A stretch of DNA of 24,737 nucleotides from a virus (lineage: Duplodnaviria > Heunggongvirae > Uroviricota > Caudoviricetes). The stretch lies in IMG/VR virus record IMGVR_UViG_2718218399_000013. One strand, given 5' to 3'. Under the pieces are notes generated by a model. The model did no database searches and was not told where the DNA came from. It saw only the letters and a list, made by a program, of their open reading frames with translations. Positions 6,401 through 12,850 of this stretch are shown here, piece by piece (the first letter of the stretch is position 1; each line of letters begins with the position of its first letter). Position numbers and translations under genes: made by a program.

Positions 6401-7153
6401 ATGACAATCCCAGAACAGAACAATAACCCGATCGTTGAAATTTCTATCCCTGTTTCGACGCAACAGGCGCTTGAGAAAGTGAATGCCACCAAATCTGCAT
6501 GGCTTGAAGCACGTCGTCAGCAAAAAGCGGCAGCGGATAATATTGCGACAATCCGCCAGCGCCGCGCTGAAATGGAAGCCACGACGAACGCCCTGAATGA
6601 GGAGTGGCGCACGCTATTTCGTGAAAGTCAGGGCGTAGTCTCAAAGGAAATGAAAAAACTGCGCACGGAAATTGCGCTGGGACGAGAAACGCTTGAGGAT
6701 TTTGATGAGCTGCTGGCGGCTCAGGAAAGCGAAAATGCACTTTTGCCGCAGGAGGCTGCGGAATTAGCCGGAAAGTATATCCACGCGCACGACACCCTTG
6801 TGGGTATTCGCGCAAAACAAATCTGGGAAGATTTTATGCAGTCGCATGGAAAAGCACTAATCCAGACACTAAGCCTGCTCAAATCAACAATGGGCAGGGA
6901 AGCCAGCGCAGTTGTCGGTGTGGTGCATTCAGTTAATGACCCGGACACACTGCTGAAAGATTTTATTCATAAACATATCACCAGACCGGCTCTGACTAAC
7001 GATGCGATGCCCGAACAGGACCCCGTGTTTAAACTGGCGGGAGTTGCCCCGGATTATGCGGCCCGTCTGGATTTCAGTAATAAACTCTCTCCAGCAGCTA
7101 TGCATAAAATGAAGGTTCGTCAGGAACGTGCTGAGAAGGAGAAAGCAGTATGA
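6401..7153 (+). CDS. first gene of the satellite late operon, 250 aa; Sid-like (capsid size determination) by position and size
   Basis: ORF with ATG start downstream of the TGT-N12-ACA dyad; charged, helix-rich composition; stop overlaps the next gene start (ATGA); assignment positional only. Confidence 0.55.
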   Translation: MTIPEQNNNPIVEISIPVSTQQALEKVNATKSAWLEARRQQKAAADNIATIRQRRAEMEATTNALNEEWRTLFRESQGVVSKEMKKLRTEIALGRETLEDFDELLAAQESENALLPQEAAELAGKYIHAHDTLVGIRAKQIWEDFMQSHGKALIQTLSLLKSTMGREASAVVGVVHSVNDPDTLLKDFIHKHITRPALTNDAMPEQDPVFKLAGVAPDYAARLDFSNKLSPAAMHKMKVRQERAEKEKAV

Positions 7154-7701
7154 TGGCCCGAGTCACTCCAGACCAAGCGCTTATCAGTTTTAGAAATGCC
7201 CGTATTCTGTGGGCTGGACATAGTGAGAGCCGAAAAGCCGTTGAACAACAGATAGAATCACTCCTCACTGCCATGGAAAAACCAGCAGATTATGCTCGAC
7301 AGCTCGAATTACAGCGGGAACATCTGGATGTGCTGAAATGGCAAATTAACTGTGCTGCGCGCGAATGCATTTACTCGCAGCATCAACTGATGGAGGCCTG
7401 CACAGAAGACGCTCTCAGCAATTTTATGCAGGCGAATGGAGCAGCCCTGACATCTGCACTGGCTCCGTTCCTGAAGGGGCGCGGAGGGGTTGACGTTGCG
7501 TCCCGTATATTACGCAATGCTCTGGTTCGCCAGCTGGCAATAACACCGCCTGAAATTGCCGGGGATTATCGTATGATTCTGGATGAATCCGGTGTGATGC
7601 CTGACCCCATGATGGTTCGTGATTGCCAGAGCTCTTACACCCCTGCACAACAACTGCGCTTTCAGCAACGTCTGGATTACATTAACGGCATGCAGGAGTA
7701 A
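7150..7701 (+). CDS. Psu-like protein, 183 aa
   Basis: Translationally coupled to the upstream gene; size and segments such as KWQINCAARECIYSQHQ and FMQANGAALTSALAPFLKG resemble my recollection of P4 Psu; not verified by alignment. Confidence 0.5.
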   Translation: MMARVTPDQALISFRNARILWAGHSESRKAVEQQIESLLTAMEKPADYARQLELQREHLDVLKWQINCAARECIYSQHQLMEACTEDALSNFMQANGAALTSALAPFLKGRGGVDVASRILRNALVRQLAITPPEIAGDYRMILDESGVMPDPMMVRDCQSSYTPAQQLRFQQRLDYINGMQE

Positions 7702-7706
7702 TATTA

Positions 7707-7979
7707 ATGGCACTTAAATGTCCCGAATGCGGTACGACGGCACACGCCAGAACCTCCGCCTATGAAGCACCATCGGTTAAACGCTCATGGTATCAGTGCC
7801 AGAATCTTGAATGTTCCTACACATTTACCGCACTGGAAAGTGTGGATACGATAATCATGAAGCCCCGGCGCAATGAACAGGAATCAGAGAAAGCACAAAT
7901 GCCGGAAAAACAACAGCAAACTCTCAATCGCTATGGCTCCGCGTCAAAGCTGTCAAGCCGTCAGCAAATTCCTGTCTGA
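7707..7979 (+). CDS. Ogr/Delta-family zinc-finger late transcriptional activator, 90 aa
   Basis: N-terminal CPECGTTAHARTS ... YQCQNLECSYTF matches the Ogr/Delta C-x2-C ... C-x4-C zinc finger; RBS aggag upstream of the ATG. Confidence 0.8.
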   Translation: MALKCPECGTTAHARTSAYEAPSVKRSWYQCQNLECSYTFTALESVDTIIMKPRRNEQESEKAQMPEKQQQTLNRYGSASKLSSRQQIPV

Positions 7980-8215: not shown

Positions 8216-8388
8216 GTTAGATTATAAAATATCAAACGCCGGTGAGATCCATTATTGTGGAACCACCCGAAGGAAGTGTAGAGGCGAAAGTACCCAAAAT
8301 AATTTTGCAAATTATTTAGAAATGAACTGAGCGCTCGAAACGAAATATAATTTCGAGCACCCCAATTAGCAGTTATATTTTTAATGTA

Positions 8389-8955
8389 TTAAACAGGATA
8401 AAAACCAGAGCTTCCATTCTTATTTAAGTTATGGATTTTATTTGCATCATTAATTTTTATTTGGAACGTCGGACCTTTATTCTCAAGAATTACAATCTGG
8501 AAATTATAGTCCCTTTTGATTAATGCGTGATAAAATGAATCACTGAGACTGACGCTATTAACATCCGATAGAGAACCCCCTCTATCTTTATCAAAGTGCG
8601 TCACTAATGGACTATCAAGCACAACAAATCCAATGAATGGATTCCCTTTTCTTGATAAAAATTCCGCAAAGCAAATGGTAAATATAGCATGCATTACTGC
8701 ACGGGTACCTTTACCAAACATTCCTCGGCGTTTCCCATTGATATTAAAGTCATATGTATCTTCGTCAAATCGCACTTTGTTATCTTTAGAATTTTCAAAA
8801 TTTATATCATTCAAAAAGTCTTGCATCGCTATTTCTATATCATACAAATCAGCTACTGTTAAGGAGTCAAAGTCCTCGGCGGAGTATTTAAGTTCGTCAA
8901 CATCATCTTCTTTATCTTGTAATGAAGATAGAATGCTATGTTTTGTGTGATCCAT
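8389..8955 (-). CDS. C-terminal ABC-ATPase head fragment (Walker B / D-loop region), 188 aa; third piece of an SMC/Rad50-like ATPase
   Basis: FGKGTRAVMHAIF (degenerate signature-like) about 20 aa before GFVVLDSPL (Walker-B-like); start ATG overlaps the upstream stop as TAATG; AT-rich. Confidence 0.5.
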   Translation of the reverse strand: MDHTKHSILSSLQDKEDDVDELKYSAEDFDSLTVADLYDIEIAMQDFLNDINFENSKDNKVRFDEDTYDFNINGKRRGMFGKGTRAVMHAIFTICFAEFLSRKGNPFIGFVVLDSPLVTHFDKDRGGSLSDVNSVSLSDSFYHALIKRDYNFQIVILENKGPTFQIKINDANKIHNLNKNGSSGFYPV

Positions 8956-9545
8956 TAAAAGATTGTCTTTATATTCATAAAGTGATTCAAGAGATGAATG
9001 TATTGTTTTATATTTTTATCTTCTAACGTCTTAAAATCACTTTTTTCTGATTGATAAATTTCATTAACATCATTTTTTCTTAACATAATTAATTCATGTT
9101 CGCGAACATTAGATCCGATTGATTCAATTAATCCTTTCAGCTGGCTTTTGATTTTCAATTTTTCTGCATTACACGACAAAAAACAATCATCATATGATAT
9201 TTCATTTTCTTTTTTTTGCGGTGTATTACAGAACTCACAATAAATATCTGCAAAATTATTTAAATAGAAATTCGCCTGTGATACAACATCTATTCTTTGT
9301 AGATCTATAAAGTATTGGTCTTTAAGAAGACTAAATCTTTCAATGAGTAATGATAAGTATTTTTCCCTGTCACTGATTGAATATAATTCATCACTTAACT
9401 CTTTTAATAATTGCTTCTTATCATCAAGTGCATCAACAATACCTTTCAATATATCTTTCGATGATTCAATATCTTGCTCTACTTTCTCAAGTTCTCTTGA
9501 AACAATGACTTGATCATATTCAGGATAAATTAATTGCGCTTTCAA
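8955..9545 (-). CDS. coiled-coil middle segment of an SMC/Rad50-like ATPase with a possible zinc-hook motif, 196 aa; no ATG start, in frame with the upstream ORF across a single TAA
   Basis: Heptad-rich charged sequence; Cys cluster YCEFCNTPQKK...DCFLSCN; track start is TTG, first internal Met is near the C-terminus; upstream ORF is in the same frame, separated only by TAA at 9576-9578. Confidence 0.45.
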   Translation of the reverse strand: MKAQLIYPEYDQVIVSRELEKVEQDIESSKDILKGIVDALDDKKQLLKELSDELYSISDREKYLSLLIERFSLLKDQYFIDLQRIDVVSQANFYLNNFADIYCEFCNTPQKKENEISYDDCFLSCNAEKLKIKSQLKGLIESIGSNVREHELIMLRKNDVNEIYQSEKSDFKTLEDKNIKQYIHLLNHFMNIKTIF

Positions 9546-9575
9546 TTCCTCATAAATATTTGCAATTTGATTTTT

Positions 9576-10208
9576 TTAAAAATATCTTGCTTTTTTATTT
9601 GGTTTTTCTGCTAAGGAGTTAGTATCATCTCTCTGAGTTAAAAGGAATTTAAATTCAGACTTTCTTTTTGTCTCCTCGCTAGGAATATCAGAAAGAATTA
9701 ACGACTTCTCAGTTAACACTCTTAATTCATCAATACAAAAAAATTCAAAAACATTATTAAGATTAAATTTATGAAGAGTATTACTTAAGTTTGTTCTTAC
9801 TTTAGCCTCTTTGAAATTCAACCTACCATAAAAGTATGATGAAAAACTCTTTTTAGACGAAGCACTTTTGGAAAAAACCATCAACAGATTAGCTTCACTA
9901 ACATTTTCAATGCTCGAATCATATAATCTGTAATGGGCGCTATCCTGAAGAGACCTCTCAATTGTCATTACCCTACCTTGAAAATTAAATTCCAGATAGG
10001 CTAAATCATAACCTTGAGCATGATCGATATCTTTATTTTTTAGTTTTTCACTCCCTAATAAATATCGAATCAAATAATATATGTATGTTTTTCCAGAGTC
10101 AGAACCACCATATAAAATAGTCAATTTAGAACCAAATTCAATTATAGCATCTAATTTATTGAATCCGGTTACCTTTATTTTTCTGAACGTAAAAAAATTG
10201 TCATTCAT
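9576..10208 (-). CDS. N-terminal ABC-ATPase head (Walker A) of an SMC/RecF/Rad50-like protein, about 210 aa before an in-frame TAA
   Basis: FTFRKIKVTGFNKLDAIIEFGSKLTILYGGSDSGKTYIYYLI is a typical ABC/SMC N-terminal P-loop; candidate ATG starts at 10208 or 10226 (the track uses TTG at 10235); ends at TAA 9576-9578 with the next ORF in frame. Confidence 0.6.
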   Translation of the reverse strand: MNDNFFTFRKIKVTGFNKLDAIIEFGSKLTILYGGSDSGKTYIYYLIRYLLGSEKLKNKDIDHAQGYDLAYLEFNFQGRVMTIERSLQDSAHYRLYDSSIENVSEANLLMVFSKSASSKKSFSSYFYGRLNFKEAKVRTNLSNTLHKFNLNNVFEFFCIDELRVLTEKSLILSDIPSEETKRKSEFKFLLTQRDDTNSLAEKPNKKARYF

Positions 10209-10659
10209 AATTAAATTCCATATCATATTTGCCAATTTTATTTTTTATAATTGATTGCAACTGCTCATCAGGAATATCACTATATAACTTAACCACCAAA
10301 TTTATATTATGCTCCATCTGCGCAACATATTCATTATGTAGAGAATTTGTAAATGCATATGTTTTTTCAGAAGCTTTATATACAAAACCACGATGTGTAT
10401 AAATTTTTGAGGCTAGTTCATAGCCTTGCAACAAAGCCAATGATTCTAAAACAATCTCTCGTTTTAGGGCTAACTGAGCATCTCTACGGGGTATTGGAGG
10501 ATGAAGACTAATCTCTTCAGGTAAAAAATCCTTAAGATTTACTAAAATAAAATCAAAACAAATAAGCCGTTCAAGGCTTAATGAAGAAGGATAAATAGCG
10601 ACGAGCACTTTCGCCATTCGACATGCCACTTCTAAACTTGAATTATAAATTCTAACCAT
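10201..10659 (-). CDS. hypothetical small protein, 152 aa from the ATG at 10659; candidate small subunit of the cargo system
   Basis: ATG overlaps the upstream stop (TAATG); its stop lies 5 nt after the downstream ATG at 10208; AT-rich; no recognisable motif. Confidence 0.5.
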   Translation of the reverse strand: MVRIYNSSLEVACRMAKVLVAIYPSSLSLERLICFDFILVNLKDFLPEEISLHPPIPRRDAQLALKREIVLESLALLQGYELASKIYTHRGFVYKASEKTYAFTNSLHNEYVAQMEHNINLVVKLYSDIPDEQLQSIIKNKIGKYDMEFNYE

Positions 10660-11276
10660 TATCTCACCGTCCAAATTACTTCACCATCATTAACCAAATG
10701 ATGGCATATTCCTTTTTTATCATTTGCTTCACATATTTTTGATAGTACTGAATGTGCAATTGGTGTCAGAACAGCCTGCTTCAAGACTGCATTACACCTA
10801 ATAAATGCATAATTATGGTCTTCATAAAAGACGGGTTCAATTGAAGATGAAATGTAACATTTCAATGCTTTGAATACATCATCTTTAAATACTTCGCGGA
10901 CAAAAACCTCAAGCGAAGATGCAAAATAAAAATCATTTCTACTATTATTAAAGTGTCGTCTGTATGGATCATCAAGCTCTAAGAAAGAACTATAAGTTTT
11001 ATTTCCATGCTCTGAATAGGCTTGAAGCAGTGCATTAACATATACAGACTCTTTTTTTGAATTGTATGTTGGAATTTCATTTGGAGGGATTCTCACGACA
11101 TACAGCTCGTTAAAGTACTTAAAATAAAGGTGTGTATTTGCAATATCATTTAAAATCAATGATAAGGGTAGAGAGTAAAAAATACTAAAATCAAAATCCT
11201 CAATATATTTTTTTATTTCATCATCTAATGGAATATCAATCTTTTTAGTTATTTTTTTGAAATTGCTGAATCCCAT
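10659..11276 (-). CDS. hypothetical protein, 205 aa; possibly the C-terminal domain of the upstream Mrr-like nuclease ORF
   Basis: ATG lies 28 nt inside the upstream ORF with no clear RBS; one extra A in the A7 run at the junction would fuse the two ORFs in frame. Confidence 0.45.
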   Translation of the reverse strand: MGFSNFKKITKKIDIPLDDEIKKYIEDFDFSIFYSLPLSLILNDIANTHLYFKYFNELYVVRIPPNEIPTYNSKKESVYVNALLQAYSEHGNKTYSSFLELDDPYRRHFNNSRNDFYFASSLEVFVREVFKDDVFKALKCYISSSIEPVFYEDHNYAFIRCNAVLKQAVLTPIAHSVLSKICEANDKKGICHHLVNDGEVIWTVR

Positions 11277-11665
11277 GAATCAAGGACTGCTTTTTTAAGC
11301 TCGTTTTTATTTTTCAATAAATTAGAAAATGTAGTAGATAAATCATAGGGTGCCACAAAAAAGTACTTCTGAGGGATGGGATAATCACCATTCAGAGTAA
11401 AATAGATAAGTTTTCCAAACTCAACTACAACATCAGAGAACCCTAAACTTTTTTTGTACAGTTTGCATTGATAATTATCCCAAGAATAACCTTCTACGTT
11501 AGGATCCGATTTATATCCAACAACGTCTCTACCTTTATCTCCAGCTCCTCCCAAACGTTCGCTCCACGGGTAATCATCTGATTTACAGACAATAAGCCAA
11601 TCATGGACAAATACCTCCCATTGTTCATCATCCCATGTCAATATTTCCGAAAGTGGTTGAGACAC
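11249..11665 (-). CDS. Mrr-like PD-(D/E)xK restriction-endonuclease-fold protein, 138 aa; first gene of the cargo operon
   Basis: GGAGDKGRDVVGY ... YQCKLYKK matches the Mrr catalytic-domain pattern (G-x-G-D-x-G-x-D ... Q-x-K); GTG start with aaggag RBS embedded in the 3' end of int (int stop 3 nt upstream). Confidence 0.6.
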   Translation of the reverse strand: MSQPLSEILTWDDEQWEVFVHDWLIVCKSDDYPWSERLGGAGDKGRDVVGYKSDPNVEGYSWDNYQCKLYKKSLGFSDVVVEFGKLIYFTLNGDYPIPQKYFFVAPYDLSTTFSNLLKNKNELKKAVLDSWDSAISKK

Positions 11666-11668
11666 AAA

Positions 11669-12850
11669 TTAACTCCTTTTTAGTCTTTCAAATATCAAAT
11701 TACTGTACCAGTCCATCATAGACTTCCTTCCACTAAAATATTGAGCATGGTTATAAGTCCCCCTAATAGAATTTTTATCTACATGAGCCAACTGGATTTC
11801 AATCCAAGCACTCTCAAAACCTTGCTCATGCAGGATTGTAGAAAGGGTATGACGAAAACCATGTCCAGTGACTTTTCCTCCATACCCAATACGCTTAATG
11901 GCTTGATTTATACTCGCTTCGCTCATTGGCCTATTCGGATCGTTCCGCCCTGGAAAAACATAACGATAGTTCCCTGTCATGATCTTGAGTTCATTGAGTA
12001 AATCTACCGCTTGAGATGATAAGGGCACAAGATGTGGCCTACGCATTTTCATCCTTTCAGCAGGAATTTCCCAAATAGCGTTATCCAGATCAAATTCTTG
12101 CCATAATGCCGCGCGTAATTCGATGGTTCTCACACCCGTAATCATCAGTAATTTCGTGGCTATCTGGACAAGCTTACTCCCGGAGTAACCCTCTAAGGCA
12201 CGTAGAAAATCAGGTATCTCATCAGCTTTTAGGAATGGGAAATGATTGGATTGGTGTACTTCGAGAGCGCTGGAGAGATCAGCCGCAGGATTGTACTCCG
12301 CCCTACCCGTTGCAATTGCGTAGCGAAACACTTCGGAGCAACGCTGCCGCACTTTGCGCATTTTCTCCAACGCACCACGTTTCTCAATTTTACGCAGAAC
12401 GTTCAGCAGCTCTAGCGGTTTAATCTCTCCCACAGGCCTTGTTCCGACATAAGGAAAAATGTCGTTCTTAAACGCTTCCATGATGTCTGATGCATATCCC
12501 GCCGACCATTTAGCAGATTTAAGTTGATGCCACTCTCTGGCTATCTTTTCGAAGGCGTTCTCTGACTCTGTTTGCATAGCTAGCTTTTGCTCTTTTCGAA
12601 CCTCACTAGGGTTCTTTCCTTCTGCCACAAGTTTTCGAGCTTCATCACGACGGGAACGAGCATCGGCAAGGGTGATCGTTGGGTAAACACCAAGCGAGAT
12701 CATTTTGGGTTTGCCGGCATAGCGATAGCGGAACCGCCAACTCTTGCTTCCATTAGGTTCTATAAGTAATGACAACCCTAGCCCATCTCCAAATGTATAG
12801 GCTTTAGCTTCAGGCTTAGCGCGGCGAATCTGCATATCGTTTAAAGGCAT
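11669..12850 (-). CDS. P4-family tyrosine integrase, 393 aa
   Basis: N-terminus MPLNDMQIRRAKPEAKAYTFGDGLGLSLLIEPNGSKSWRFRY typical of P4/CP4-type integrases; C-terminal GHGFRHT ... Y catalytic region; adjacent to a partial thrW copy; the track's 12901 start adds 17 Cys-rich residues. Confidence 0.85.
   Translation of the reverse strand: MPLNDMQIRRAKPEAKAYTFGDGLGLSLLIEPNGSKSWRFRYRYAGKPKMISLGVYPTITLADARSRRDEARKLVAEGKNPSEVRKEQKLAMQTESENAFEKIAREWHQLKSAKWSAGYASDIMEAFKNDIFPYVGTRPVGEIKPLELLNVLRKIEKRGALEKMRKVRQRCSEVFRYAIATGRAEYNPAADLSSALEVHQSNHFPFLKADEIPDFLRALEGYSGSKLVQIATKLLMITGVRTIELRAALWQEFDLDNAIWEIPAERMKMRRPHLVPLSSQAVDLLNELKIMTGNYRYVFPGRNDPNRPMSEASINQAIKRIGYGGKVTGHGFRHTLSTILHEQGFESAWIEIQLAHVDKNSIRGTYNHAQYFSGRKSMMDWYSNLIFERLKRS

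What the first reader, a model, noticed from the sequence alone, without database searches (positions are those of the whole stretch)
9540..9580. ATPase N-terminal and coiled-coil ORFs are in the same frame, separated by a single TAA inside a T5A7 tract
The 219-aa Walker-A ORF ends at TAA (9576-9578). The next ORF (8955-9545) is in the same frame, starts only at TTG, and has no ATG until near its C-terminus. This looks like one gene of about 425 codons interrupted by a nonsense codon: a recent inactivation, a homopolymer sequencing artefact, or a stop needing read-through. The tract reads gatatttttaaaaaaatc on the minus strand.
Basis: seen in the sequence. Interest (0 to 1): 0.6.

Follow-up and report, generated by a model that had tools for sequence, protein, structure and literature searches.

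The report
Nonsense mutation in dead Lamassu ATPase
The in-frame TAA is a real, lineage-fixed nonsense mutation (Leu TTA to TAA) in the ATPase gene of an anti-phage "Lamassu" operon carried by a P4-like prophage of E. coli O157:H7, but older frameshifts had already broken that operon, so this is ordinary pseudogene decay and the reference genome already flags the gene as a pseudogene.

Summary
On the minus strand, TAA at 9578-9576 sits in a T5A7 tract, and the next ORF continues in the same frame.

The two ORFs are pieces of one gene, but that gene has 606 codons, not about 425. It is lmuB, the SMC/Rad50-like ATPase of a short Lamassu (ABC-3C) operon, lmuA-lmuC-lmuB. The operon lies in the psu-int hotspot of the P4-like prophage Sp2 of E. 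coli O157:H7.

- **Ancestral codon:** Eight intact homologues (594-612 aa) have Leu at this codon. Proteus, O55:H7, O157:H- 493/89 and LSU61 read TTA in a T6A6 tract.
- **Distribution:** The TAA allele is exact in 295 complete E. coli genomes, so it is not a sequencing artefact. It arose on the typical non-sorbitol-fermenting O157:H7 branch.
- **Older damage:** A -1 deletion in an A-run near 9018 splits off the C-terminal third of lmuB (ORF 8389-8955). Another -1 deletion near 11259 splits lmuA.
- **Continuing decay:** Individual lineages add further indels, a stop in lmuC, an IS insertion and large deletions.

Reverting TAA alone gives only 417 aa. Repairing all three lesions restores a 335-aa LmuA and a 606-aa LmuB. 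Read-through, recoding and phase variation are not supported. Sakai RefSeq already annotates ECs_0293 as a pseudogene. Interest is low.

The parts
9576..9578 (-). TAA nonsense codon at codon 211 of lmuB. The ancestral codon was TTA (Leu); the change is T to A at window 9577 on the coding strand.
   Evidence: Searches show the stop. Leu in all 8 intact homologues. T at 9577 in O55:H7, 493/89, LSU61 and Proteus, A in Sakai, EDL933, EC4115 and the window.
9571..9582 (-). T5A7 tract, derived from an ancestral T6A6 tract by a substitution at the junction of the two runs.
   Evidence: alignment: TATTTTTTAAAAAATC in O55:H7 and Proteus, TATTTTTAAAAAAATC in the window.
9576..10208 (-). lmuB fragment 1: N-terminal half of the ABC head (210 aa plus stop), with Walker A GGSDSGKT at 10109-10086.
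   Evidence: LmuB PDLC03863 positions 3-199, E = 8e-50. AAA_23, AAA_15 and SMC_N. RefSeq CDS WP_000999326.1.
8955..9575 (-). lmuB fragment 2: coiled-coil arm with the CxxC zinc-hook motif (CEFC, 9239-9228). It is in frame with fragment 1. Its last ~20 codons, downstream of about 9018, are out of the ancestral frame.
   Evidence: LmuB profile positions 210-412, E = 5e-22. C324 and C327 invariant..
9013..9018 (-). Site of a 1-nt deletion in an A-run (A6 to A5, GAT[A]AAAAATAT). It shifts lmuB into the frame of ORF 8389-8955.
   Evidence: gap against Proteus and Pantoea; present in all 8 E. coli alleles aligned across this site.
8389..9015 (-). lmuB fragment 3: distal coiled coil and C-terminal half of the ABC head, with Walker B FVVLDS at 8628-8611. 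The annotated ATG at 8955 is the internal Met419 codon of the intact gene.
   Evidence: LmuB profile positions 428-608, E = 5e-37; weak DUF3732 match; in this frame the sequence KYKTIHSSLESLYEYKDNLLMDH matches Proteus YKKIHLLLESLYEYKDNLLMDY.
10201..10659 (-). lmuC (ABC-3C middle component 2). It is intact in the window and overlaps the lmuB start as ATGAATGA.
   Evidence: PF20288 MC2, 6e-30. LmuC PDLC03871, 2.5e-36..
10659..11276 (-). lmuA C-terminal fragment (CTD6 domain).
   Evidence: PF20282 CTD6, 7.7e-30. LmuA PDLC03852 positions 141-333.
11249..11665 (-). lmuA N-terminal fragment: a predicted PD-(D/E)xK-type nuclease domain (GDKGRD...YQCK, Lys68). It has a GTG start preceded by GGAG.
   Evidence: LmuA PDLC03852 positions 10-140, 9e-41. 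SD upstream of the GTG; the catalytic residue in the solved Salmonella LmuA is K68.
11252..11260 (-). Site of a 1-nt deletion at or in an A-run that splits lmuA into two overlapping ORFs.
8329..8362 (-). Terminator-like hairpin just downstream of the lmuB stop; probably the end of the operon.
   Evidence: 13-bp stem followed by a T-rich tail.
11669..12850 (-). P4-type tyrosine integrase (intS) flanking the hotspot. ogr/delta (7707-7979), psu (7150-7701) and sid (6401-7153) flank the other side.

Best explanation
The TAA is a genuine, fixed nonsense substitution: TTA (Leu211) to TAA, which turned a T6A6 tract into T5A7. It lies in lmuB, the 606-codon SMC/Rad50-like ABC ATPase of a short Lamassu (ABC-3C) anti-phage operon, lmuA (nuclease plus CTD6), lmuC (MC2), lmuB. 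The operon is cargo in the psu-int defence hotspot of the P4-like prophage Sp2 of E. coli O157:H7.

The operon was already non-functional when the TAA arose. Two -1 deletions in A-runs, in lmuA near 11259 and in lmuB near 9018, are shared by O55:H7 and every O157 allele examined, so they predate it. The TAA appeared later, on the branch leading to typical non-sorbitol-fermenting O157:H7, as a neutral secondary lesion. Further lineage-specific lesions followed.

- **Shown:** the identity of the gene, the ancestral codon, the allele distribution, the other lesions, and their order by parsimony.
- **Inferred:** loss of function, because no fragment carries both halves of the ABC head joined by the coiled coil. 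The mutational mechanism, a misalignment-type substitution at a run boundary that copies the neighbouring base, is also inferred.
For: **Gene identity**
- One LmuB profile is covered colinearly by three ORFs, one LmuA profile by two ORFs, and LmuC is intact. Pfam finds MC2 and CTD6.
- A profile of intact homologues matches solved DUF3732 chains best, at 1e-18, then Rad50 and SMC heads.
- Intact single-protein homologues of 594-612 aa exist, including Proteus (85% identity) and Pantoea (73%).
- The intact operons encode 335-, 152- and 606-aa proteins. In Pantoea the operon sits in the same P4-like int ... ogr-psu context.

**The codon**
- Leu occupies the stop position in 8 of 8 aligned homologues.
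- Base 9577 is T in O55:H7, 493/89, LSU61 and Proteus, and A in typical O157:H7.
- TAA is exact in 295 records and TTA in 10.

**Older lesions**
- The window operon is 3277 nt against 3279 nt for the intact operons. The difference is exactly two 1-nt gaps, and O55:H7 has both.
- All eight E. coli alleles aligned base by base carry both deletions.
- None of 308 E. coli records matches either repaired site.
- Repairing all three lesions gives 335- and 606-aa ORFs. Repairing only TAA gives 417 aa. Strain 493/89 carries exactly that 417-aa CDS.

**Ongoing decay**
- O55:H7 has a -1 at 9046, LSU61 a +1 at 9047, and EC4115 a -1 at 9217. DEC5A has an internal stop in lmuC.
- Three strains carry an IS1203 insertion. 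One sample has a 670-nt deletion. F3113 keeps only 17% of the lmuB query.

**Annotation and phylogeny**
- Sakai RefSeq annotates ECs_0293 as one pseudogene spanning all three ORFs.
- LSU-61 lies between O55:H7 and both O157 branches (PMC3309690).
- Lamassu protection needs the LmuB zinc hook, ATP binding and head engagement (bioRxiv 10.1101/2025.03.14.643221).
Against: - No expression or functional data were available, so loss of function is inferred from sequence.
- lmuC is intact in most strains, and the operon has been retained rather than deleted in about 300 genomes.
- dN/dS on the E. coli branch is still low (about 0.07). I read this as recent decay, but it does not exclude residual constraint.
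- PGAP annotates the fragments as three ordinary CDSs in most genomes.
- Three of the 308 records carry some other variant within the 95 nt around the stop, and I did not inspect them.
Confidence: 0.94

Rival explanations
1. Homopolymer sequencing or assembly artefact: the real sequence has a sense codon, and the T5A7 tract was miscalled.
For: The lesion sits at a junction between two homopolymer runs, a context prone to platform errors. Three of 308 records show some other variant within the 95 nt.
Against: The TAA allele is exact in 295 independent complete genomes, including Sakai, two EDL933 assemblies and many strains from different laboratories. The alternative allele is confined to phylogenetically basal strains. 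The change is a substitution that keeps the tract length at 12, not the length error typical of homopolymer miscalls.
Confidence: 0.01
2. Programmed recoding: stop-codon read-through or ribosomal or transcriptional slippage at the T5A7 tract yields a full-length ATPase.
For: The U- and A-rich tract superficially resembles a slippery sequence, and the downstream ORF is in frame.
Against: - Functional homologues have a plain Leu codon and no stop here, so the signal is not conserved.
- The -1 and +1 frames hit stops after 11 and 13 codons.
- The 111 nt around and downstream of the stop fold no better than shuffles (z = -0.57).
- Read-through would still meet the frameshift near 9018, giving 417 aa without Walker B.
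- lmuA is frameshifted as well.
- From general knowledge, UAA is the most efficiently terminated stop codon in E. coli.
Confidence: 0.01
3. Phase-variable contingency locus: the homopolymer tracts in lmuA and lmuB switch the defence system ON and OFF by slipped-strand mispairing, and the window happens to show the OFF state.
For: All the frame-breaking indels found lie in or beside A-runs of 5-8 nt. One run (9041-9046) has changed by -1 in O55:H7 and by +1 in LSU61. Phase-variable defence genes are known in other bacteria (general knowledge).
Against: No ON allele was found at either ancestral indel site among 308 E. coli records. The TAA is a substitution and cannot be reversed by slippage. 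The tract changes follow clonal lineages instead of varying among close isolates. Runs of 5-8 nt are short for efficient switching (general knowledge).
Confidence: 0.02
4. Functional split gene: the fragments are translated separately and reassemble, or have acquired a new role, as the PGAP annotation of three CDSs implies.
For: - PGAP calls three CDSs.
- N- and C-terminal halves of Rad50 and SMC heads can reassemble in vitro: PDB entries such as 1f2t hold Rad50 head fragments, and the reassembly itself is general knowledge.
- The operon is retained in about 300 genomes, and lmuC is intact.
Against: - Homologues are never split: 26 single proteins of 594-612 aa.
- The TTG of ORF2 has GAGGA only 1 nt upstream, and that sequence is simply the Glu-Glu codons conserved in the intact genes. 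The ATG of ORF3 has no SD and is an internal Met codon.
- Fragment boundaries differ between lineages: 210+196+188 aa, 417+188, 394+188, 390+188 and 210+129+188. That is incompatible with a selected architecture.
- The effector LmuA is split between its nuclease domain and the CTD that docks it to LmuB and LmuC.
Confidence: 0.03

Closest known systems
Short (type II) Lamassu systems LmuA-LmuC-LmuB, e.g. Salmonella enterica SalEnt LmuACB and Vibrio cholerae DdmABC (PMC12663957; bioRxiv 10.1101/2025.03.14.643221)
   Same: - Same gene order: effector, middle component, ATPase.
- LmuB is about 600 aa, with Walker A GxxxxGKT, a coiled coil carrying one CxxC zinc hook, and the short-Lamassu Walker B form hhhhD[Q/S/T/E] (VVLDS here).
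- LmuA has an N-terminal PD-(D/E)xK-like domain with Lys68, plus a C-terminal docking domain.
- PADLOC LmuA, LmuB and LmuC profiles match at 1e-36 to 1e-50.
   Different: The window copy is broken in lmuA (a -1 frameshift) and in lmuB (a nonsense codon plus a -1 frameshift), so it cannot form the LmuA-LmuB2-LmuC complex. Sequence is distant from the solved examples: single-sequence PDB searches found nothing, and only a profile reached them.
Intact orthologous operons in Proteus mirabilis (L006, L007) and in a Pantoea alhagi P4-like element (L008, L009)
   Same: 89% and 79% nucleotide identity over the whole 3.28-kb operon. The gene order and the overlapping gene junctions are identical. The Pantoea copy sits in the same int ... 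ogr-psu-sid hotspot.
   Different: They have TTA or CTG (Leu) at codon 211 and no frameshifts. LmuA is 335 aa and LmuB 606 aa.
ABC-three-component (ABC-3C) systems as defined in Pfam (MC2 PF20288, CTD6 PF20282)
   Same: The middle component MC2 and the effector C-terminal domain CTD6 both score far above Pfam's thresholds, next to an SMC-like ABC ATPase.
   Different: This is a second name for the same system, not a separate family. The same pseudogenisation caveat applies.
Rad50/SbcC zinc-hook SMC-like ATPases
   Same: ABC head split into N- and C-terminal halves by an antiparallel coiled coil with a CxxC apex. The profile matches Rad50 heads at 4e-8. Lamassu is proposed to derive from SbcCD (PMC12663957).
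   Different: The coiled coil is much shorter, there is no Mre11/SbcD partner, and the gene sits in a defence operon on a mobile element.
Defence cargo in the P4 psu-int hotspot (PMC9122126) and its turnover (PMC13586616)
   Same: The operon lies exactly between int and ogr/psu of a P4-like satellite and is AT-rich (27-33% GC) compared with its flanks.
   Different: PMC13586616 reports that recognisable defence pseudogenes are rare in P4 elements (under 1% of their pseudogenes) and favours swapping of intact systems. This locus is one of the rare decayed-in-place cases, vertically retained from before the O55:H7/O157:H7 split.

Membership tests
Lamassu (short / type II), LmuB component | SMC/Rad50-like ABC ATPase of about 600 aa with Walker A and the short-Lamassu Walker B form hhhhD[Q/S/T/E] | tested here: met
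   After repair of the lesions the ORF is 606 aa. Walker A is GGSDSGKT and Walker B is VVLDS. The motif definition comes from PMC12663957. PADLOC LmuB matches at 8e-50, 5e-22 and 5e-37 across the three pieces.
Lamassu (short / type II), LmuB component | Coiled coil with a CxxC zinc-hook dimerisation motif (present in many but not all short LmuB) | tested here: met
   CEFC at 9239-9228. C324 and C327 are invariant across 20 homologues.
Lamassu (short / type II), operon | LmuA effector with a C-terminal docking domain, plus the LmuC middle component, encoded next to LmuB | tested here: met
   PADLOC LmuA positions 10-140 and 141-333, and LmuC at 2.5e-36. Pfam CTD6 and MC2. The order is lmuA-lmuC-lmuB, as in the intact operons.
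Lamassu (short / type II), operon | Uninterrupted reading frames that encode a functional complex giving anti-phage or anti-plasmid protection | tested here: not met
   lmuA is in 2 pieces and lmuB in 3. The locus is therefore a Lamassu pseudogene operon, not a functional member. The phenotype itself cannot be tested with these tools.
Lamassu LmuB, structural relatives | Closest solved structures are LmuB chains | tested here: inconclusive
   The profile's best PDB matches are 'DUF3732 domain-containing protein' chains 9hqu, 9uxl and 9ny5 (1e-18 to 1e-9), ahead of Rad50 and SMC. I infer that these chains are the published LmuB structures, but I could not confirm the entry codes in the papers.
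Pseudogene (unitary, decaying) | Homologues encode one uninterrupted protein with a sense codon at the disrupted position | tested here: met
   26 homologues of 594-612 aa. Leu in 8 of 8 aligned. TTA in O55:H7 and Proteus.
Pseudogene (unitary, decaying) | The disruption is real, and multiple independent lesions accumulate in different lineages | tested here: met
   295 genomes carry TAA. Two shared frameshifts plus at least 7 lineage-specific lesions.
Pseudogene (unitary, decaying) | Relaxed selection visible as a raised dN/dS | tested here: not met
   dN/dS on the E. coli branch is about 0.07 for lmuA and lmuB, similar to the intact Proteus branch. This fits inactivation that is recent relative to the 11% divergence from Proteus. 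There are too few post-inactivation substitutions to test directly.
Programmed stop-codon read-through / frameshift recoding site | The stop or slippery site is conserved among homologues, and a stimulatory downstream structure is present | tested here: not met
   No homologue has a stop here. Fold z = -0.57. The shifted frames terminate within 11-13 codons.
Phase-variable (contingency) locus | ON and OFF tract lengths segregate among closely related isolates | tested here: not met
   No ON alleles among 308 records at either ancestral indel. The TAA is a substitution.

The most novel reading that the evidence does not exclude
The inactivation may not be incidental. Lamassu-family systems restrict both phages and plasmids. 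Losing this P4-borne copy before the O55:H7/O157:H7 split could have been a permissive, or even selected, step for the lineage's later build-up of Stx and other lambdoid prophages and of pO157. Alternatively, the still-intact LmuC or the freed LmuA nuclease fragment may retain some activity, which would explain why the wreck is kept in about 300 genomes. Nothing here tests either idea. Retention is equally expected from the short time elapsed and from linkage to an otherwise intact-looking P4-like element.
Probability: 0.04. Interest if true: 0.5.

Novelty: already known. Interest (0 to 1): 0.1.

Why it matters
The finding matters mainly for annotation. PGAP presents the lmuB and lmuA fragments as five ordinary CDSs ("AAA family ATPase", "ABC-three component system protein" and three "hypothetical protein") in hundreds of O157:H7 genomes. 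In reality they are two broken genes of one dead Lamassu operon, as the curated Sakai record already indicates for lmuB. Tools that count defence systems should not score O157:H7 as Lamassu-positive.

It also has some value as a dated series of decay steps that maps onto the stepwise O55:H7 to O157:H7 model. The TAA and the C-to-T change at 8926 mark the typical non-sorbitol-fermenting O157:H7 branch. The locus is also one of the reportedly rare defence systems in a P4 hotspot that decayed in place instead of being swapped out.

It reveals no new mechanism.

Tried and rejected
- **FRIK944 lead.** Rousset et al. 2022 (PMC9122126) synthesised an inactive P4-hotspot system from O157:H7 FRIK944, a strain whose locus is 100% identical to the window. 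I suspected it was this operon. The supplement shows the construct, pFR98, was a 2-gene "cytidine deaminase" system from a different P4-like element. Rejected.
- **P0027.** This 344-aa MC2-containing protein is 96% identical to part of LmuB and looked like a divergent allele sharing the stop. It is an O157-type allele with a 670-nt deletion (window 10247..9578) that fuses lmuC to the coiled-coil fragment.
- **Short lmuA gene calls in L006 and L008.** The 145- and 201-aa calls suggested that lmuA is also broken in the "intact" relatives. The 335-codon GTG-initiated frames are open in all four loci, so this is a start-calling difference only.
- **Single-sequence PDB searches.** The repaired LmuB and LmuA found nothing. 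Only a 20-sequence profile reached solved structures.
- **NCBIfam.** No significant family for any piece.
- **Pfam on the LmuA N-terminal domain.** No match even at E = 10. The nuclease assignment therefore rests on the PADLOC LmuA profile, the D...QxK motif, and the equivalent Lys68 in the published Salmonella LmuA.
- **Promoter scan.** Hits were no more frequent than in shuffles (20 against 18.8), so I make no claim about internal promoters.
- **Elevated dN/dS.** Not seen.
Full report
**1. Checking the observation**

On the minus strand the window reads ...AAGCAAGA TAT TTT TAA AAA AAT CAA ATT GCA.... The TAA occupies 9578-9576, inside a T5 run (9582-9578) followed by an A7 run (9577-9571). 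The upstream ORF (9576-10235 as listed mechanically) contains Walker A, GGSDSGKT. The downstream ORF (8955-9545) starts at a TTG 33 nt further on, in the same frame. The description is accurate.

Two corrections are needed. First, the true start of the upstream piece is the ATG at 10208, giving 210 aa. This is the start RefSeq uses and the one that aligns with the homologues' N-termini.

**2. What the gene is**

- Pfam finds AAA_23, AAA_15 and SMC_N in piece 1 and a weak DUF3732 match in piece 3. It also finds ABC-3C "middle component 2" (6e-30) and "CTD6" (8e-30) in the two ORFs upstream.
- PADLOC is decisive. One 610-position LmuB profile is covered colinearly by the three ORFs at positions 3-199, 210-412 and 428-608, with E = 8e-50, 5e-22 and 5e-37. 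One 336-position LmuA profile is covered by ORF 11249-11665 (positions 10-140) and ORF 10659-11276 (positions 141-333). ORF 10201-10674 is LmuC.
- The locus is therefore a short Lamassu (ABC-3C) operon, lmuA-lmuC-lmuB, with lmuB in three pieces and lmuA in two.
- A profile of 20 intact homologues matches solved "DUF3732 domain-containing" chains best (1e-18), then Rad50 and SMC heads.
- The family keeps an invariant CxxC (CEFC, 9239-9228) in the middle piece. This is the zinc hook described for LmuB (PMC12663957; bioRxiv 10.1101/2025.03.14.643221).
- Walker B VVLDS fits the short-Lamassu form hhhhD[Q/S/T/E].
- The LmuA N-terminal piece has GDKGRD...YQCK with Lys68. That is the residue number of the catalytic lysine mutated in the solved Salmonella LmuA PD-(D/E)xK nuclease.

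**3. Where it is**

The 3.4-kb operon is at least 99% identical in 308 of 5426 complete E. coli genomes, essentially all O157:H7 or O55:H7.

In Sakai it lies in "prophage Sp2, P4-like phage", between intS and ogr/delta-psu-sid. This is the psu-int defence hotspot of P4-like satellites (PMC9122126).

The operon is 27-33% GC against 45-52% in its flanks. A terminator-like hairpin follows lmuB.

The curated Sakai record annotates ECs_0293 as a single pseudogene, "AAA family ATPase", spanning all three lmuB pieces. PGAP records such as EDL933 list three separate CDSs.

**4. The ancestral state of the stop**

The joined conceptual protein finds 26 single-chain homologues of 594-612 aa, including Proteus mirabilis (606 aa, 85% identity) and Pantoea alhagi (606 aa, 73%). 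In an alignment of eight of them, the stop position is Leu in every sequence, within a conserved EKPNKKA..FLK.Q motif.

The intact operons encode 335-aa LmuA, 152-aa LmuC and 606-aa LmuB. The Pantoea copy sits in the same P4-like context.

At the DNA level, Proteus and O55:H7 read TAT TTT TTA AAA AAT (T6A6), where the window reads TAT TTT TAA AAA AAT (T5A7). That is a single T-to-A change at window 9577 on the coding strand.

**5. Not an artefact, and when it arose**

A 95-nt query with the TAA allele matches exactly in 295 records. The TTA allele matches exactly in 10: seven strains labelled O55:H7, FDAARGOS_946, the sorbitol-fermenting O157:H- strain 493/89, and LSU61. Three records carry some other variant.

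LSU-61 is the published intermediate between O55:H7 and both O157 branches (PMC3309690). By parsimony, the TAA arose on the branch leading to typical non-sorbitol-fermenting O157:H7. A C-to-T change at 8926 arose on the same branch.

**6. The TAA was not what killed the gene**

- The window operon is 3277 nt against 3279 nt for the intact operons. The difference is exactly two 1-nt gaps, one at TTTC[N]AAAAAAATA near 11259 in lmuA and one at GAT[A]AAAAATAT near 9018 in lmuB. O55:H7 shares both.
- All eight E. coli alleles aligned base by base carry both deletions.
- Downstream of 9018, the frame of ORF 8389-8955 reads KYKTIHSSLESLYEYKDNLLMDH, matching Proteus YKKIHLLLESLYEYKDNLLMDY. The "start" ATG at 8955 is therefore the internal Met419 codon.
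- Repairing all three lesions restores open frames of 335 and 606 codons. Reverting only the TAA gives 417 codons. That is exactly the CDS annotated in strain 493/89, which represents the pre-TAA state.

The order of events is therefore two frameshifts before the O55:H7/O157:H7 split, then the TAA.

**7. Continuing decay**

Lineage-specific lesions include:
- a -1 in the A6 run at 9046 in O55:H7, and a +1 in the same run plus four substitutions in LSU61;
- a -1 in the A8 run at 9217 in EC4115-type strains;
- a nonsense change in lmuC of DEC5A;
- an IS1203 insertion in three strains;
- loss of most of the locus in F3113;
- a 670-nt deletion fusing lmuC to the coiled-coil fragment in one sequencing sample.

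Every small frame-breaking lesion lies in or beside a homopolymer run of at least 5 nt. Such runs make up only 7.8% of the operon. The T-to-A change at the T-run/A-run boundary copies the neighbouring base, which is what transient-misalignment mutagenesis would produce. That mechanism is my inference.

dN/dS on the E. coli branch (about 0.07 for lmuA and lmuB) resembles the intact Proteus branch. The operon was therefore under purifying selection for most of its history, and its decay is recent.

**8. Rival explanations**

- *Read-through or recoding:* the stop is absent from functional homologues, the shifted frames terminate after 11-13 codons, downstream RNA folds no better than shuffles (z = -0.57), and any read-through product is still frameshifted.
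- *Phase variation:* no ON allele among 308 records at either ancestral indel, and the TAA is a substitution.
- *Functional split gene:* homologues are never split, and fragment boundaries differ between lineages. The TTG of ORF2 has GAGGA only 1 nt upstream, which is just the conserved Glu-Glu codons, and the ATG of ORF3 has no SD. The effector is also cut between its nuclease domain and its docking domain.
- *Functional requirements:* published mutagenesis shows Lamassu needs the LmuB zinc hook, ATP binding and head engagement. No fragment here provides these together.

**9. Comparison and verdict**

The locus works like nothing, because it is a wreck. By descent it belongs to short Lamassu / ABC-3C systems, with intact orthologues in Proteus and in a Pantoea P4-like element. 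It fails the membership feature "intact, functional", so it should be filed as a Lamassu pseudogene operon.

The pseudogene status of lmuB is already recorded in the Sakai reference annotation, so the finding is already known in kind and in substance.

Two minor points are worth keeping:
- PGAP over-annotates five fragment CDSs in hundreds of genomes.
- A 2026 survey reports that recognisable defence pseudogenes are rare in P4 elements (PMC13586616). This locus is one of the uncommon decayed-in-place cases, fixed in a major pathogen lineage.

Interest is low.

Noticed in passing
window 11249-11276 (deletion site about 11252-11260): The Lamassu effector gene lmuA is also broken.
   Followed up: yes
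A 1-nt deletion (A6 to A5) moves the gene into the frame of ORF 8389-8955. The TAATG overlap at 8955 is a by-product, and the ATG is the internal Met419 codon.
   Followed up: yes
window 9041-9047; L003, L004, L013 (O55:H7) and L012 (LSU61): The same A6 run has changed independently in two lineages: -1 in O55:H7 and +1 in LSU61. Each change gives a different truncation of lmuB (394 and 390 aa).
   Followed up: yes
window 9210-9217; L005 (EC4115) and other strains whose lmuB region is 1846 nt: EC4115 has an A8-to-A7 deletion that shortens the middle fragment to 129 aa. Many other O157:H7 strains also have a 1846-nt allele, but I inspected only EC4115 at the base level.
   Followed up: partly
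window 10399; L003 (O55:H7 DEC5A): In DEC5A a T-to-A change creates an internal stop in lmuC (MC2), the one gene still intact elsewhere. PGAP flags it as a pseudogene.
   Followed up: partly
hits H1-H3 and H90: Three O157:H7 strains (M1300706002, 6535NalR, 6535WT) have an IS1203 (IS3-family) element inserted in the locus. Strain F3113 retains only the last 17% of the lmuB region.
   Followed up: no
L010 2383-3417 (sample SRR7251010); window 9578-10247: A 670-nt deletion between two A-runs removes the N-terminal lmuB fragment and fuses lmuC in frame to the coiled-coil fragment, giving a 344-aa chimera (P0027).
   Followed up: yes
window 9530-9624, across E. coli records: Three of 308 records match neither the TAA nor the TTA 95-mer exactly. 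They could carry extra mutations, reversions or tract miscalls. I did not retrieve them.
   Followed up: no
summary: One of the 311 matching places lies on a record classed as a plasmid, and one genome has two places. This could reflect a misassigned contig or a duplicated or mobilised copy of the P4-like element.
   Followed up: no
window 8926: A C-to-T substitution in the C-terminal lmuB fragment has the same distribution as the TAA among the alleles aligned: T in typical O157:H7, C in O55:H7, 493/89, LSU61 and Proteus. It is a second marker of the same branch.
   Followed up: partly
window 23294-23369 (- strand): This tRNA-Thr (CGT) is the only tRNA gene in the window. It is far from the P4-like element and lies on the side of the neighbouring lambda-like prophage Sp1.
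   Followed up: no
L006 5113-5550 and L008 4945-5550: In the NCBI assemblies of the intact Proteus and Pantoea operons, lmuA is called as only 145 or 201 aa. The full 335-codon frame starting at GTG is open in both, so these are start-site miscalls and not lesions.
   Followed up: yes
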